From contig JBHLOY010000001.1 in NCBI GenBank assembly GCA_048939995.1, positions 128,001-192,000 of the forward strand: a stretch of 64,000 bases of DNA, read 5' to 3'. A program made the translations under genes and the position numbers. Below, in pieces: positions 36,656 to 43,213 of this stretch; positions within the stretch are counted from its first letter, which is position 1, and every line of letters starts with the position of its first letter. The DNA is from Promethearchaeota archaeon (GTDB lineage Archaea > Asgardarchaeota > Lokiarchaeia > Sigyniarchaeales > SOKP01). The notes under the pieces were generated by a model, which searched no databases, was not told where the DNA came from, and saw only the letters and a program-made list of their open reading frames with translations.

Positions 36656-37212
36656 AACAATTTCCAATTACAATAGGATTTGATGATGCTAAATTTGAGT
36701 TGAAATCAAAAGTAAAAACAACTCAATTAATCGGAGTAGTCTGTCAAGGTATGAGGCTAGTTAGAGTATTAATAAGTCCAATTTCTATTGATGGAGATGA
36801 TGCAACTATTAGTTTAATCAAACTTGCTAAACAAAATGAAAAACATATTCAATATGTTCTTACGGATACAATAACTTTTGGAGGATTTAATATTATAGAT
36901 TTAGAAGAGATTTATACTAAGCTAAAAAAACCGATTATAGCAGTTACAGAACGAGAAGTAGATCTTGATTCGGTTAAAGTAGCTTTAATCAATAAATTTC
37001 CTAAAACCTATAAGAAAAAGCTCCAATATATTATAAATGCTGGAGAATTATTTGAAACTACAGTAGAAACTGCGGGTGGTCGTTCAAAAATATATCTTCA
37101 CTTAAAGGGAGTAATATTTGATGAAGCTAAAGATTTACTAAAAAGATTATGCATCGATTCAAAAATGCCAGAACCTGTAAGAATTGCTCATCTAATTGGG
37201 AAGGCTTTTTAA
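36652..37212 (+). CDS. DUF99 family (endonuclease V-like) protein
   Basis: IGFDD, IDGDDAT, ITFGGFNIID, PEPVRIAHLI. Confidence 0.85.
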   Translation: MKQFPITIGFDDAKFELKSKVKTTQLIGVVCQGMRLVRVLISPISIDGDDATISLIKLAKQNEKHIQYVLTDTITFGGFNIIDLEEIYTKLKKPIIAVTEREVDLDSVKVALINKFPKTYKKKLQYIINAGELFETTVETAGGRSKIYLHLKGVIFDEAKDLLKRLCIDSKMPEPVRIAHLIGKAF

Positions 37213-37700
37213 AACGTAGCGACTTCATATTCTAATATTTCCTTCATTCGCTCTCGTAACTCAGGATGAATAGCAGTCATCCCATAGGTTTTTAACCCGC
37301 CTAACCTCCTTTGCACCTCTTGTGCACTCAATGCTCCTTGGAGATCCTGTTTATTTGCTATAGCAATGATTTTAGTGCCCAAATTCCGCTCAAATCTATC
37401 ATAGATCTCCTTAGTCTTCTTCACACTTTCCTCTGTAGAATCACACACCAGCACAGCTAATCCCGCACCCCGTAGGAAGTCTTTCCACATAAATTTGAAC
37501 CGCTGTTGACCCCCTAAATCCCAAATACTTACTTTCTTTCCATTTAAAATAGAATCCTCAACTTCTAATCCCACAGTTGGAACCCGCTTCTTTGGAACTT
37601 CCCTCCCTTGTAATAAAGACAGTAAAGAAGTTTTCCCTACTCCACCTTCCCCCACAATACAAATCTTTGATTTAGTTGTGAAAACCTTAACCGACCCTTT
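37209..37700 (-). CDS. Arf/Rab-like small GTPase; start codon uncertain (reading frame open to 37700)
   Basis: SKICIVGEGGVGKTS, PTVG, WDLGGQ, ANKQDL. The track's GTG start (37655) lies inside strand beta1. Confidence 0.88.
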   Translation of the reverse strand, partial: KGSVKVFTTKSKICIVGEGGVGKTSLLSLLQGREVPKKRVPTVGLEVEDSILNGKKVSIWDLGGQQRFKFMWKDFLRGAGLAVLVCDSTEESVKKTKEIYDRFERNLGTKIIAIANKQDLQGALSAQEVQRRLGGLKTYGMTAIHPELRERMKEILEYEVATF

Positions 37701-38068: not shown

Positions 38069-39406
38069 TTATGCTCCAGTTTCAATATCCTTGACTATGC
38101 CAACTGCAATAGTCCTGCCCATATCACGAACGGCGAATCTCCCCATCTCCGCAAACTGGTCATAGCGCTCCAAGCACATCTTTTTTATAGGCTGTAGTTT
38201 AATGACAGCAGATTCATTTCGCTTTATGAACTTCGGTGCATCTTCTATGACCGCTCCTGTTTTCTGATCAAGCTTTTTGCTGATTTCTATGAACTTTGCT
38301 GCGACCTGAGCAGTATGAGCGTGAATTACAGGGGTATATCCTTGAGCAATAGCGGTTGGGTGCCAAATAACTATAATTTGCCCTGTCCAATTGCCATTTG
38401 GGAATATGACGTTAGGGGGATTGTTTGGGTGACCAAGGCAATCTCCTCTCCCTACATCCTTCATTTCAAGGCCTCTAATACTGAATCCAACGTTATCACC
38501 TGGTTCAGCTTGAGGAATTTCCTCATGATGCATTTCAATGCTTCGGATTTCACCTTGAAATCCAGTTGGCATAATGATAATTTTGTCACCTTTCTTAAGT
38601 ACACCAGTTTCGACTCTACCAACTGGAACAACACCGGTTCCTTTAATTCTATACGCATCCTGGATTGGGAGTCGTAATGCCTTATCAGTTGGTTTTGGTG
38701 GTATCTCAAATTGATCGATTGCGTCAATGAGGGTTGGACCATCATACCAAGGCAATTTATCGCTTTTCTTTGAAAGATTTTGCATCATCAACCCTGAGAC
38801 AGGTACAAATGGAATCTTTTTAACAGGGAATCCTATATTTTTTAAGAGATCTGAAACTGCTTCTTTGCATTCATTAAAGCGTGCTTCACTATAGTCATAG
38901 TTATCTGCTTTATTGATTGCTACAACTAATTGTTTTATTCCAAGAGTTTGAGCTAAATAAGCATGTTCTCGTGTTTGACCATTGGCAGCAATTCCAACTT
39001 CCATTTCACCTTTTTTACCAGATACAACTAAAATAGCAGCATCAGCTTGTGAAGCACCCGTGATCATATTCTTTACGAAATCAGCATGACCAGGAGCATC
39101 AATTATTGTGAAATATTTGTTTGGAGTTTCAAATTTTCTGAAAGCTAAATCGATAGTAATACCTCTTTGGCGTTCCTCTTTTAATTTGTCAAATACGAAT
39201 GCATAGGACCAAGAATCTCGATCGAACTCTTTTGCTAATTTTTCTAATTCGCGAGCTTCTCTATCGGTGACTGCTCCTGTCTCTATTAACAGGGCACCCA
39301 TCATTGTGGACTATATGGGATTAAACCTAAGTGGTTATCTAATCATTCCATGATCGATGTGCCCAATAATAACTAGATTCAGATGTTGTTTTTGTTTTGA
39401 AGACAT
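38069..39406 (-). CDS. tuf: Translation elongation factor 1-alpha, two exons: 39406-39346 and 39312-38069 (434 aa spliced)
   Basis: Exon 1 MSSKQKQHLNLVIIGHIDHG+A joined to AG+STMMGALL restores GHIDHGKST; downstream ERQRGITID, DAPGH, NKAD, GRFAVRDMG. Confidence 0.95.
39313..39345 (-). other. Candidate 33-nt bulge-helix-bulge (archaeal endonuclease-type) intron in EF-1alpha mRNA
   Basis: Insert UGAUUAGAUAACCACUUAGGUUUAAUCCCAUAU; central helix AUGG/CCAU; 3-nt bulges AA^U and AU^A; intron stem GAUUAGA/UUUAAUC; in-frame stops if unspliced. Confidence 0.88.
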
Positions 39407-39549
39407 TTCTTTATCAACTTAATTTTTTTTTAGATAATATAATATTAATTGAATATAGATTTTATTTAAAGATATTAGTTCTAAGTCTTGCTCAATATTT
39501 ATTTTTTACTATAAAAATAAGGTAATTTTGTATATAATAAGAAGGTAAG

Positions 39550-41084
39550 CTAATTTTTTTCATTTTTTAACTGAATTATTTCAGATAAAGTTTTATTACA
39601 ACTTTTTTTCTTAATTGGAGCTGAAATATTCCATTCATTCATTAATTTACGTAAGGTCTTAATATTTACCTCCAAACCATTAGCTACGTCTTGGACAGAA
39701 AATCTATCAACCAAAAATTGAAGATTATTTTCATTTTCTACTTTTGACTTTAGAAGATCATAAGCCTCACGATAAGTATCAAAATATCTCCTTTTCCTTT
39801 CAAGGGAATCGACACAATTTTCAGTACTACTTATCATTTCATTGAATAAAACCGCTCCTAATGAGAGTTCCCATACTATCCTTCGAGATTTGATAATGTC
39901 ATCCGGTGATGGTTCATTTTTAACATAGACTTTGTATTTAATGTCAAAGACATCCTTTATTTTATCTAAAAACCATTTTTCCGATGAACAAATCTTTGTA
40001 GTCCCCTCTATCCTATCGGCATCATATACACCTAATAACCAAGATAAAGCATGTTCTCTATTATTTTCATTAAGATTCAATACAAAGTCGGGAATTTCCT
40101 TAAATTTAATTCTTTCTAAATCTTTAAATAAAGGTTTACATGTAAATTGTACATTTATAAGTGTGAATTTCTTTTTCTCTCCATGATAATCAATTATTCT
40201 TTCTCTTTCATTCAATTTATTTTTAGGGTTTAATCCTAAGACTTCACAAAATTTTAATAAATGAATTTTGTCCTAAATAAAAAGCCTAACCAATATGCTT
40301 TATCTTTTGTATTTATTCTTTTAAAATAATCATATTTTAGCTTTGGTTCCTTTACTTGCCACTGCTGATGTGAATAATCTTTTAAATTAGGATTACATTT
40401 TTGATACTTCTCAACTATTTTTGAACTTATTCCAATCTCTTTATTAGAGGATAATAAATTCTCTTCTAACATCTTGATTTGTTTCTTAGAAAACTTATAA
40501 TCAGGATTGTATCCAGAATTATTCGGATTTTTCAGTCTCCCAAAAATATGTTTTAAGAATTCCTTCCCTCTACCAAAATATTTAATACTTACATATTCTC
40601 GAAGTTTTGTAATAGAAAGTGAATCTAGATTTGGATCTACTTGTACCACTGCTTTAAGTAAGTCATTGATGAAATTATCTGTGGGGTATTTTCCAATTTT
40701 TTTTGGCTGACTTTCAAGATCATAATTAATATTGCTAATTTTTACACCCCTTTTGATAGGTACATCTCTATTTTCCTTTCTTTTCGATATCGTATTTTTA
40801 TCTTCAGAATCTCCCATCCAATGAATCGAATCACATTTCTTTACTTTTTTCTCTTGAGAGCCTTTATTTATCCAATCTATCTTATCAAACTTAGTTGTAT
40901 TTTTCTCATTAGGAGCATTATTTACCCAATCTATCTTATCAAATTTACTCTCTTTGTCTACTCTCTCTCTTTTTTTATTATCTTTCAATATTTTTTCTTC
41001 ATTATCATCATTATAATCAACCACAATATCATTATCTGTTTTATTTTTCTTAACAGAGTTATTGTTCTTTGTTTTAAAACTCAT
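39550..41084 (-). pseudogene. Decayed free-standing double-motif LAGLIDADG endonuclease (track ORFs 40254..41084 and 39550..40215)
   Basis: DYFKRINTKDKAYWLGFLF is truncated before the expected ADG; frame change at ~40274 continues DKIHLLKFCEVLG; second motif WLLGVYDADR; C-terminal HTH-like SVQDVANGLEVNIKTLRKLM. Confidence 0.75.
40818..40946 (-). repeat. Three 54-bp (18-aa) tandem repeats, KFDKIDW-type
   Basis: KFDKIDWVN / KFDKIDWIN / KCDSIHWMG; CCAATCTATCTTATCAAA identical in two copies. Confidence 0.85.
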
Positions 41085-41124: not shown

Positions 41125-41520
41125 CTAAAAATTAAGGAATGAATCCTTATCATTAGCTGTTTTACATAAGTATCGCTCACTTTCGTTTAATACTAAGGCG
41201 TATCTATTTCGAAGGCTAAGGAGCATGTCCCTTTCCCTCAAATTTCCTGTAAAAATCTCGTTACTAGGATAGCCTAAGCGGAAAAGAATTTTCGTTCTTG
41301 CAGAATCTATGGCGCTATCATAGAGAAGATATGGTCTTTGTTCCGAAATAATGTACCCTAAACCTTTTGCGTCACATTCCTCAATATTGTTTGAAAAATA
41401 GCTATTAAAAGTATTTTTCATAATGAATTCTGCTGATTCGGGAACTCTTCGCTAGTCACTCTTACCCCATTCCTCTCTAGTTTCACTACTTTTAGTCCGA
41501 ACTTCCTCAATTTCAGCCAT
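41125..41520 (-). pseudogene. Hypothetical gene with in-frame TAG at codon 23
   Basis: ATG 41520 MAEIEEVRTKSSETREEWGKSD*RRVPESAEFI continues in frame into track ORF 41125..41421. Confidence 0.55.
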
Positions 41521-41683
41521 ATTGATATTATAGAACCTCTATATTTAAAGAAAAAACCTTCTCAAAAAAAACCATTAATTCTCTTAATTAGGATATAACT
41601 GGTATGAAAAAATTGAAGAATTAATTGATTTTAATAATAACGAGTTTGAATTTGCAAGATAAAAAATCAATTCTCAACGATAA

Positions 41684-42208
41684 ATGCTAAAATATTATAA
41701 ATCATTAGAATTTCTTCTACATAAATGTATAAGAGTAAGTAGCGAAAATCTAATGAAAAAACCAAAAGCATTAAAAATAAAATCTATTTTCAGTGATAAA
41801 AAAACATTTTTCTGTGGAGAATGTGGATCAGCCATTAAATTACTAGATAAAACCTGTAAGAAATGTGGGTTCCAAAATAAAGTCAGAATAATGGCTATCC
41901 AAGAATTAGAGTCAAGGGAGATAAATATTAAACATGATTTAGATAGACTTGTAAGAGAAATGAAATCTAAATGGTTAATTGCACAATCTGTACAATTGAA
42001 AGAAATGGAAATAGATTTATTAATGGAAGCGGCTCGGAAAATTAAATTAAGAAGGGTGCAACTAGAAATAGGAAGTATCCCAGAAGATAGAATAAGGTGG
42101 GTAAAATCCCAATATCATGAAAAAAATAGAACTATCCAAGAAATCGCTGATGATCTAGGTGAAACCATGATCATCGTGAGGAAATACGTTGATTCTAATG
42201 TACAATAG
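41684..42208 (+). CDS. Zn-ribbon + HTH hypothetical protein
   Basis: CGECG...CKKCG; RTIQEIADDLGETMIIVRKYV. Confidence 0.7.
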   Translation: MLKYYKSLEFLLHKCIRVSSENLMKKPKALKIKSIFSDKKTFFCGECGSAIKLLDKTCKKCGFQNKVRIMAIQELESREINIKHDLDRLVREMKSKWLIAQSVQLKEMEIDLLMEAARKIKLRRVQLEIGSIPEDRIRWVKSQYHEKNRTIQEIADDLGETMIIVRKYVDSNVQ

Positions 42209-42359
42209 AATTATAAAGAGTCTTTGGATTTAAATATAATAAAGTAACTTTCCAAAAGAAAAGAGGTTAGAGAAAACTACTTCTTCTAGAAAAATTAATT
42301 AAAGACGTTAAGGTTTTTGTCAATTAGATCTATAGATGAAACAATTTTAAGATAGAAAA

Positions 42360-42608
42360 ATGATTTGTCCAAATTGTAAGAATCAAGTTGTCCCAGAAAG
42401 GATATATATGAAACCTATAAAGGATTATTGGATTCTGGGCAGTCCTCAATGTCACATTTTACTTTATGAAGAGATTGTATATACTACTGAAAAGAGTAGA
42501 AAAATGGCAGAGTTAAAGAAAGAATTAAAAAGAAGGGGATTCGATAATTCTGTTTTAAAAGAATTAGATAGTAAGAAAAAAAGAGAAGTTAATAATAAAA
42601 ATCCCTGA
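42360..42608 (+). CDS. Small Zn-ribbon-like hypothetical protein, possibly degenerate
   Basis: MICPNC...GSPQCH (second CxxC lacks its first Cys). Confidence 0.45.
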   Translation: MICPNCKNQVVPERIYMKPIKDYWILGSPQCHILLYEEIVYTTEKSRKMAELKKELKRRGFDNSVLKELDSKKKREVNNKNP

Positions 42609-42751: not shown

Positions 42752-43213
42752 TTAATTCAATAATTTTTTAGAATTTCCTTTAAGATCTAGGTACAATTCT
42801 CCCTTATTCTCCAATAATAAGTTGAATATTCCATTGACTTGTTTTTGAAAGTTAATTATTTCGCCATTTTTATCAGTAAATTCAATTACAACTTTTCTCT
42901 CTAAAAATTCATGAAATACTTGTTGGATATTATAAATATTTACTCGCGTTTCCATGAAAAAATCTAATAAATGATGTAGATAAAAAGCTTTAACATATGA
43001 TTGTTCTTTGCTATATTTCTTTTCTAAATCTTTATAATGAAAAAATTTTAACTGTTTCAAGACAATAGAATCTTCTTCATCAAATAAGTGTTTTAATTTC
43101 TCGTTAAAGGTCCACTCTGTACCATAGTCAATATTTCTATCCACAAAATTAGCGATTAAGCGATCTATTCCTGCTTTATCTGTCCATTTATTATGAATAA
43201 CCCAGTTTGGTAT
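42752..43213 (-). CDS. Hypothetical putative metal-binding helical protein; probable ATA start at 43213
   Basis: (M)PNWVIHNKW...VDRNID...FYLHHLLD; frame extends 23 codons upstream of the track's GTG. Confidence 0.65.
   Translation of the reverse strand: MPNWVIHNKWTDKAGIDRLIANFVDRNIDYGTEWTFNEKLKHLFDEEDSIVLKQLKFFHYKDLEKKYSKEQSYVKAFYLHHLLDFFMETRVNIYNIQQVFHEFLERKVVIEFTDKNGEIINFQKQVNGIFNLLLENKGELYLDLKGNSKKLLN

What the first reader, a model, noticed from the sequence alone, without database searches (positions are those of the whole stretch)
39313..39345. Bulge-helix-bulge intron interrupting the P-loop codon of EF-1alpha: candidate endonuclease-spliced mRNA in an Asgard archaeon
Seen: the track's EF-1alpha ORF lacks its G1 motif. 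The missing N-terminus (ATG 39406, MSSKQKQHLNLVIIGHIDHG) is upstream, separated by 33 nt that give in-frame TAA (39337-35) and TAG (39313-11). Removing exactly 39345-39313 joins GGA A|AG TCC ACA = G-K-S-T (434 aa). Independently, the RNA folds with BHB geometry: 4-bp central helix AUGG/CCAU, 3-nt bulges AA^U and AU^A, 7-bp intron stem GAUUAGA/UUUAAUC. Cutting after the second nt of each bulge gives exactly the protein-predicted junctions. The exon-side closing helix is short (C-G, then imperfect), so the motif is slightly relaxed. Established: BHB motifs are cut by archaeal splicing endonuclease EndA and ligated by RtcB; mRNA examples are rare (cbf5 in crenarchaeotes). Inference: an essential translation factor depends on tRNA-type splicing here, conceptually like non-spliceosomal HAC1/XBP1 splicing. 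I know of no report for EF-1alpha but cannot check the literature.
Basis: partly seen in the sequence, partly recalled or inferred. Interest (0 to 1): 0.97.

Follow-up and report, generated by a model that had tools for sequence, protein, structure and literature searches.

The report
Mobile mini-intron in Asgard EF-1alpha
The only gene for the essential translation factor EF-1alpha in this Asgard archaeon is broken by a 33-base insert shaped like the introns that archaea cut out of tRNAs, so the message almost certainly has to be spliced, and the insert appears to spread between species with a DNA-cutting gene that sits just upstream.

Summary
Confirmed. Removing 39345-39313 is the only 33-nt cut restoring GHIDHGKST in the genome's single EF-1alpha gene, and it falls exactly at bulge-helix-bulge (BHB) cut positions. 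Ten related genomes and 13 metagenome contigs carry 29-33-nt inserts in the same codon, many frameshifting. Seven further sites in the gene carry other inserts; all 8 sites have a full 4-bp central helix (joint chance about 1e-11). Two EndA subunits and RtcB are encoded, and six more genes of this genome carry such inserts. Spliced RNA was not seen, and the BHB is not the lowest-energy fold in wider context. The scan found such EF-1alpha introns before on other DNA; the searchable literature knows only cbf5 as a coding-region case. Added here: a free-standing LAGLIDADG gene lies directly upstream in 8 of 10 genomes with this intron and 0 of 91 without; the intron is scattered over the tree, and two clades show co-conversion tracts around it. 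This points to collaborative homing, not HAC1-like regulation. The window's endonuclease copy is dead.

The parts
39346..39406 (-). EF-1alpha exon 1 (61 nt; codons 1-20 plus first base of Lys21)
   Evidence: 20/20 identical to the N-terminus of intronless G019 and G010
39313..39345 (-). 33-nt BHB intron splitting the P-loop Lys21 codon (A|AG); in-frame TAA 39337-35
39348..39351 (-). central helix, exon strand (AUGG), followed by bulge 39347-45 (AA^U)
   Evidence: invariant in 8 distinct same-site introns
39315..39318 (-). central helix, intron strand (CCAU), followed by bulge 39314-12 (AU^A)
39319..39344 (-). intron hairpin; first three pairs conserved, two of them with compensatory changes in relatives
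38069..39312 (-). EF-1alpha exon 2 (rest of Lys21 to stop); alone it gives a 411-aa ORF lacking G1
   Evidence: GTP_EFTU matched only from profile position 20
39407..39512 (-). tuf upstream region of the endonuclease-linked haplotype
   Evidence: 79-80% identical to G029/G018/G275, 60% to the closest relatives G019/G010
39550..40272 (-). free-standing LAGLIDADG endonuclease pseudogene, 3' part (motif 2 WLLGVYDAD), ending about 140 nt upstream of tuf
40254..41084 (-). same pseudogene, 5' part; a deletion of about 73 nt near 40275 removes the acidic end of motif 1 and shifts the frame
   Evidence: alignment to G029 and G275

Best explanation
The insert is an archaeal BHB intron in an mRNA. After transcription the junctions fold into a 4-bp helix with two 3-nt bulges; the two-subunit splicing endonuclease EndA cuts after the second base of each bulge, RtcB joins the exons, and the P-loop lysine codon is restored (shown: geometry, junction, enzymes, no other tuf; inferred: cutting and ligation). 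The intron is a passenger, not a regulator. It most likely spreads by collaborative homing: a free-standing LAGLIDADG gene just upstream of tuf cuts the intronless allele at or near the insertion site, and repair from an intron-bearing allele copies intron, neighbouring exon codons and often the endonuclease gene (shown: co-occurrence, patchy tree, conversion tracts in two clades; inferred: the cut site). In this genome the endonuclease has decayed and the intron stays because only exact loss is viable. About 0.92 for splicing, about 0.6 for the homing route.
For: Only one register restores GKST and it equals the BHB cut sites. Same-codon inserts of 31-33 nt in 10 genomes and 29-32 nt in 13 metagenome contigs, all ending in the CCAU helix strand, many frameshifting. 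Seven other sites in the gene (offsets 26, 36, 48, 54, 62, 294, 1259) carry unrelated 29-43-nt inserts, each with a 4/4 helix in a protein-restoring register; joint chance 10^-10.7. Two of three intron-side pairs covary; 94% of cells pair against 30-47% for slid registers. Single tuf; EndA with Tyr/His/Lys, a second subunit without the His, and RtcB. Six more genes of the genome show the geometry, four with empty alleles in relatives. Homing: endonuclease gene or remnant directly upstream in 8/10 genomes with this intron, 0/91 loci without it, 84 of these with at least 1 kb upstream, and in 4 of 7 further metagenome loci with enough flank; family is LAGLIDADG by profile and fold; intron needs 12 changes on a 106-row tree; synonymous identity collapses in codons 9-23 between intron-bearing genes and intronless sisters: G029/G273 3/15 against 104/109 downstream, G218/G264 3/15 against 97/108.
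Against: No read or contig shows the spliced junction; the one RNA run covers only 38416-38566. With 25-nt flanks the BHB is 2.7 kcal/mol above the predicted minimum, and the exon-side helix is one pair. The covariation is modest (24/500 shuffles reach it). Genomes are not independent: the endonuclease link rests on about four lineages. In this genome exon 1 is not significantly converted relative to G019/G010 (p 0.4, 0.07), and the tuf-adjacent endonucleases form two clades not shown to be one. The endonuclease family is common elsewhere in these genomes (69/135). Its target is unknown.
Confidence: 0.9

Rival explanations
1. A spliced BHB intron, but inherited vertically and lost many times; the upstream endonuclease is a hitch-hiker with another target.
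For: The endonuclease of this genome is only 67% identical to that of G029, compatible with old common descent; exon 1 here follows the species tree; the purA intron is shared by all five relatives tested, so vertical retention happens; cbf5 introns show secondary loss (PMC2738675).
Against: 16 of 106 rows scattered with at least 11 forced changes; conversion tracts in two clades; intronless members of two sister clades share the ancestral upstream sequence while intron-bearing members of both share another; the G036 remnant (genus g1) is closer to the G265 enzyme (genus g28) than to the G029 one; no endonuclease beside tuf genes with introns at other sites.
Confidence: 0.3
2. The intron is a regulatory switch that couples EF-1alpha output to splicing capacity, like HAC1/XBP1.
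For: It sits in an invariant codon of an essential gene; an alternative fold competes with the BHB; a 5'-UTR BHB intron affects expression of a Haloferax gene (PMC7714728).
Against: Absent from about 113 of 123 family tuf genes including the two closest relatives; introns at eight unrelated sites; conserved codons are also where homing elements persist (established knowledge).
Confidence: 0.07
3. The insert is bypassed during translation (ribosome hopping or frameshifting), without splicing.
For: It is short, forms a hairpin and has an early stop codon.
Against: The Lys21 codon is split, so no intact AAA/AAG exists on the unspliced RNA here, and there is no matching landing codon; lengths in all three frames occur at the one site; bypass does not explain the helix-bulge geometry at eight sites.
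Confidence: 0.02
4. Pseudogene or assembly error.
For: The genome is a 38-contig assembly, 98% complete; no contig laid was shown to span the insert.
Against: Near-identical insert in three other species; exon 2 intact and 97% identical to G019; tuf sits in its conserved neighbourhood and no second copy was found.
Confidence: 0.02

Closest known systems
cbf5 pre-mRNA BHB intron of Desulfurococcales and Sulfolobales (PMC2738675)
   Same: 16-44-nt intron without an ORF, relaxed BHB, cuts after the second bulge base, splits an invariant codon between its first and second base, hetero-oligomeric EndA in the host.
   Different: Other host gene and phylum; here at least 8 sites in one gene and at least 7 genes in one genome; patchy among close relatives; linked to an endonuclease gene; splicing shown by cDNA for cbf5, not here.
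Non-canonical tRNA introns of Asgard archaea (bioRxiv 10.64898/2026.10.13.758758)
   Same: BHB geometry, repeated gains, two EndA paralogues, no splicing yet shown in an Asgard cell.
   Different: That study covers tRNA genes only (no mention of mRNA, EF-1 or homing in the text) and leaves the route of arrival open.
Collaborative and trans homing by free-standing endonucleases of phages (PMC2988022; T4 mobE with the nrdB intron, PMC2790892)
   Same: Intergenic endonuclease gene beside a conserved gene that carries an ORF-less intron; co-conversion of flanking exon sequence.
   Different: Known cases involve HNH-type or other phage enzymes and self-splicing group I introns; here a LAGLIDADG and a 33-nt protein-spliced intron on an archaeal chromosome; target cleavage untested.
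LAGLIDADG-encoding BHB introns of archaeal rRNA genes (I-DmoI type)
   Same: BHB splicing plus a double-motif LAGLIDADG enzyme (I-DmoI among the best structural matches).
   Different: There the enzyme is encoded inside the intron; here it lies outside, upstream of the host gene.
5'-UTR BHB intron of Haloferax HVO_1309 (PMC7714728)
   Same: mRNA substrate of the splicing endonuclease.
   Different: Lies in the untranslated leader and does not break a reading frame.

Membership tests
Archaeal BHB intron | 4-bp central helix between the two junctions | tested here: met
   AUGG/CCAU; 4/4 at all 8 tuf sites
Archaeal BHB intron | two 3-nt bulges, cut after the second base, giving the functional product | tested here: met
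   cut positions equal the only register restoring GKST
Archaeal BHB intron | intron-side flanking helix | tested here: met
   7-8 contiguous pairs here; two compensatory pairs in relatives
Archaeal BHB intron (strict form) | exon-side flanking helix of two or more pairs | tested here: not met
   one C-G pair, absent in 2 of 8 relatives; the motif is the relaxed form, as for cbf5 (PMC2738675)
Archaeal BHB intron | motif is formed by the precursor RNA | tested here: inconclusive
   minimum-energy fold with short flanks, 2.7 kcal/mol above it with 25-nt flanks
Archaeal BHB intron | host encodes EndA and an RNA ligase | tested here: met
Archaeal BHB intron | spliced RNA in vivo | tested here: inconclusive
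   the only RNA run does not cover the junction
Archaeal BHB intron | cleavage by EndA in vitro | not testable with these tools
   needs a bench assay
Group I or group II self-splicing intron | ribozyme core of some hundreds of bases | tested here: not met
   33 nt; no Rfam match at the locus
LAGLIDADG endonuclease (upstream gene) | two LAGLIDADG-type motifs and the fold | tested here: met
   in relatives: profile matches only LAGLIDADG enzymes in PDB, best E 0.0014; model pLDDT 88 matches I-HjeMI, I-AniI, I-SceI, I-DmoI; Pfam only below cut-off
LAGLIDADG endonuclease (upstream gene) | intact frame and motif 1 in this genome | tested here: not met
   deletion of about 73 nt with frameshift
Collaborative homing pair | endonuclease gene and intron travel together | tested here: met
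   8/10 against 0/91; lineages not independent
Collaborative homing pair | co-conversion of exon sequence around the intron | tested here: inconclusive
   clear in two related clades, not significant in this genome
Collaborative homing pair | enzyme cuts the intronless allele at the insertion site | not testable with these tools
   needs a cleavage assay

The most novel reading that the evidence does not exclude
One family of Asgard archaea has a population of tRNA-type mini-introns in the coding regions of many core genes, spliced by the tRNA machinery, and at least the EF-1alpha P-loop intron is spread between species by a free-standing LAGLIDADG endonuclease encoded next to the gene: a homing route for ORF-less, protein-spliced mRNA introns in the closest prokaryotic relatives of eukaryotes.
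Probability: 0.55. Interest if true: 0.92.

Novelty: new variant of a known kind. Interest (0 to 1): 0.84.

Why it matters
Coding-region introns in archaea were known from one gene, cbf5. Here an essential translation factor and at least six other genes of one Asgard genome appear to need the tRNA splicing enzymes, so mRNA splicing would be routine in part of the group closest to eukaryotes. How short BHB introns arrive is an open question in the current literature; the link to an adjacent endonuclease gives a testable route. In practice these genes are called truncated (the 411-aa form of a relative stands in the public collection), which affects a standard phylogenetic marker. The complete genomes of the same order have unbroken tuf, purA and uL11, which may be why this was missed.

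Tried and rejected
RNA evidence: one metatranscriptome with a small share of words held a single identical 151-nt contig in exon 2; no junction cover. A contig of run X3 skipping the intron was about 80% identical, so an intronless relative, not spliced RNA. A pattern scan of all GTDB contigs was too loose and returned chance hits. First reading of the G176 insert as a compensatory change at the same site was wrong: it lies one base downstream and is an independent intron. No second copy of the intron sequence in the genome (best 24/33), so no donor among tRNA introns was found. A single-sequence fold of the endonuclease failed; the alignment-based one worked. Pfam did not recognise the window's endonuclease pieces. 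The de novo BHB scan gave 40,922 raw candidates and is not a census; only six were checked against relatives, and for purA and the CoA-transferase no empty allele was found among five relatives. The sigma-70 promoter scan is not suited to archaea and gave nothing above chance.

Full report
Observation. The minus strand reads ATG at 39406, twenty codons ending GHIDHG, then 33 extra bases, then the rest of EF-1alpha. Unspliced, the frame stops after three codons. Of 24 registers for a 33-nt deletion only 39345-39313 restores G-K-S-T; the product has 434 residues and is 97% identical to the uninterrupted protein of the nearest relative. A search of the whole genome (98% complete) finds no second EF-1alpha; other hits are 25-38% identical GTPases. 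The downstream ORF lacks the start of the GTPase domain.

RNA geometry. The junctions form the helix AUGG/CCAU with 3-nt bulges AA^U and AU^A, an intron-side stem of 7-8 pairs and a single exon-side pair. Cuts after the second bulge base equal the protein-defined junctions. One site alone is weak evidence (4.9% of shuffles). The BHB is the predicted minimum with flanks up to 12 nt and 2.7 kcal/mol above an alternative with 25-nt flanks, so it may form during transcription or be captured by the enzyme; this is inference.

Same site in relatives. A pattern search of 400 genomes of the phylum gave 11 hits: ten at this codon, in three genera of the family, 31-33 nt long, and one in a distant family one base downstream with its own helix CGGC/GCCG. 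Thirteen metagenome contigs add lengths of 29, 31 and 32 nt (three further hits were chance, two repeat known genomes). The helix is invariant, the loop varies, and two intron-side pairs change on both sides (modest support, 24/500 shuffles). Most of the 123 family tuf genes have a plain lysine codon.

Other sites and genes. Family members carry unrelated inserts at offsets 26, 36, 48, 54, 294 and 1259 of tuf. At all eight sites a protein-restoring register has a 4/4 helix; joint chance 10^-10.7. In this genome a scan for BHB motifs that rejoin broken frames found purA, uL11, metG, a PurM-like gene, a MoxR-like ATPase and a CoA-transferase; relatives show empty alleles for uL11, metG, the PurM-like gene and MoxR, and extra introns in uL11. 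Earlier notes of this scan named five of these six.

Machinery. The genome encodes two EndA paralogues, one with the Tyr, His and Lys of the catalytic triad and one without the His (residue reading from my knowledge of the family), as expected for the two-subunit type that accepts relaxed motifs (PMC5829648 abstract), and an intact RtcB. ARAGORN finds only 20 tRNAs, in keeping with heavily interrupted tRNA genes.

RNA data. No usable test: the one RNA run holds a 151-nt identical contig in exon 2 only.

Mobility. About 140 nt upstream of tuf ends a broken ORF pair (41084-39550). Intact homologues in relatives have two LAGLIDADG-type motifs; their profile matches only LAGLIDADG enzymes in PDB and the model (pLDDT 88) matches I-HjeMI, I-AniI, I-SceI and I-DmoI. 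The window's copy has lost about 73 nt in motif 1. Among 101 tuf loci the gene or a remnant lies directly upstream in 8 of 10 with this intron and none of 91 without (G010 has a 44-residue trace beyond the next gene); tuf genes with introns at other sites lack it. Four of seven further metagenome loci with enough flank have it. All stages of a homing cycle are present: intact enzyme plus intron, damaged enzyme plus intron, intron alone. On a DNA tree of the gene body (106 rows, FastTree; G227, G176 and short rows left out) the intron needs 12 changes, 11 forced by strong branches. Intron-bearing genes differ from intronless sisters at nearly every synonymous site of codons 9-23 but hardly downstream: G029/G273 3/15 against 104/109, G218/G264 3/15 against 97/108, a tract wider than the BHB needs. 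In this genome the upstream region is of the G029 type (79-80%) though the gene body and eIF2-alpha group with intronless G019/G010 (60% upstream), and the intron is 31/33 identical to that of G029; exon 1, however, follows G019. The history here is therefore mosaic and not resolved. The tuf-adjacent enzymes fall in two clades not shown to be one, and the family is common at other loci, so the link rests on few independent lineages.

Comparison with the literature. Nine searches of the held library found cbf5 as the only coding-region BHB intron (PMC2738675, PMC7714728) and a 5'-UTR case in Haloferax. A 2026 preprint on Asgard tRNA introns does not mention mRNA or homing and leaves the route of arrival open. 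Collaborative and trans homing are known from phages (PMC2988022). Subscription journals are largely missing from the library. This scan noted EF-1alpha BHB introns before on other Asgard DNA; those notes are not independent support.

Verdict. A real, most probably EndA-spliced mRNA intron (0.9), a new variant of a known kind, with a plausible and testable homing partner (0.6). Interest 0.84.

Noticed in passing
G000 C7:109897-109926(-), C23:129198-129234(-), C6:82172-82203(+), C23:175418-175447(-), C7:20329-20358(+), C38:64707-64737(+): 30-37-nt BHB inserts in purA, uL11, metG, a PurM-like gene, a MoxR-like ATPase and a CoA-transferase of this genome.
   Followed up: yes
L117, L118, L119 (uL11 of G010, G029, G273): Further 28-36-nt BHB inserts 21 and 50 nt downstream of the site used in this genome; G010 and G029 carry two introns in uL11.
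   Followed up: partly
L108, L106, L107, L109, L110, L111: Six more BHB-split candidates from the de novo scan (for example C17:377423-377452, minus strand), not checked against relatives.
   Followed up: no
family-wide: A large family of free-standing double-motif LAGLIDADG genes (69 of 135 genomes, often several copies) that Pfam does not recognise; some sit beside other conserved genes such as an RNA polymerase subunit.
   Followed up: partly
window 41125-42608: Three small ORFs between the conserved hypothetical gene and the endonuclease pseudogene, absent at this place in G019, G010 and G029; one has a weak zinc-ribbon match.
   Followed up: no
window 42764-43213 (-): Conserved hypothetical protein of about 150 residues that precedes tuf in most of the family; no Pfam match; largely deleted in G019.
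   Followed up: partly
L006:1509 (G036 tuf): EF-1alpha seems to start at ATT; no ATG in place.
   Followed up: no
whole genome: ARAGORN finds only 20 tRNA genes in a 98% complete genome, many with introns; probably multiply interrupted tRNA genes.
   Followed up: no
window 37209-37655 (-): Small Arf/Roc-like GTPase whose called ORF begins inside the first strand before the P-loop; true start probably upstream and non-canonical.
   Followed up: no
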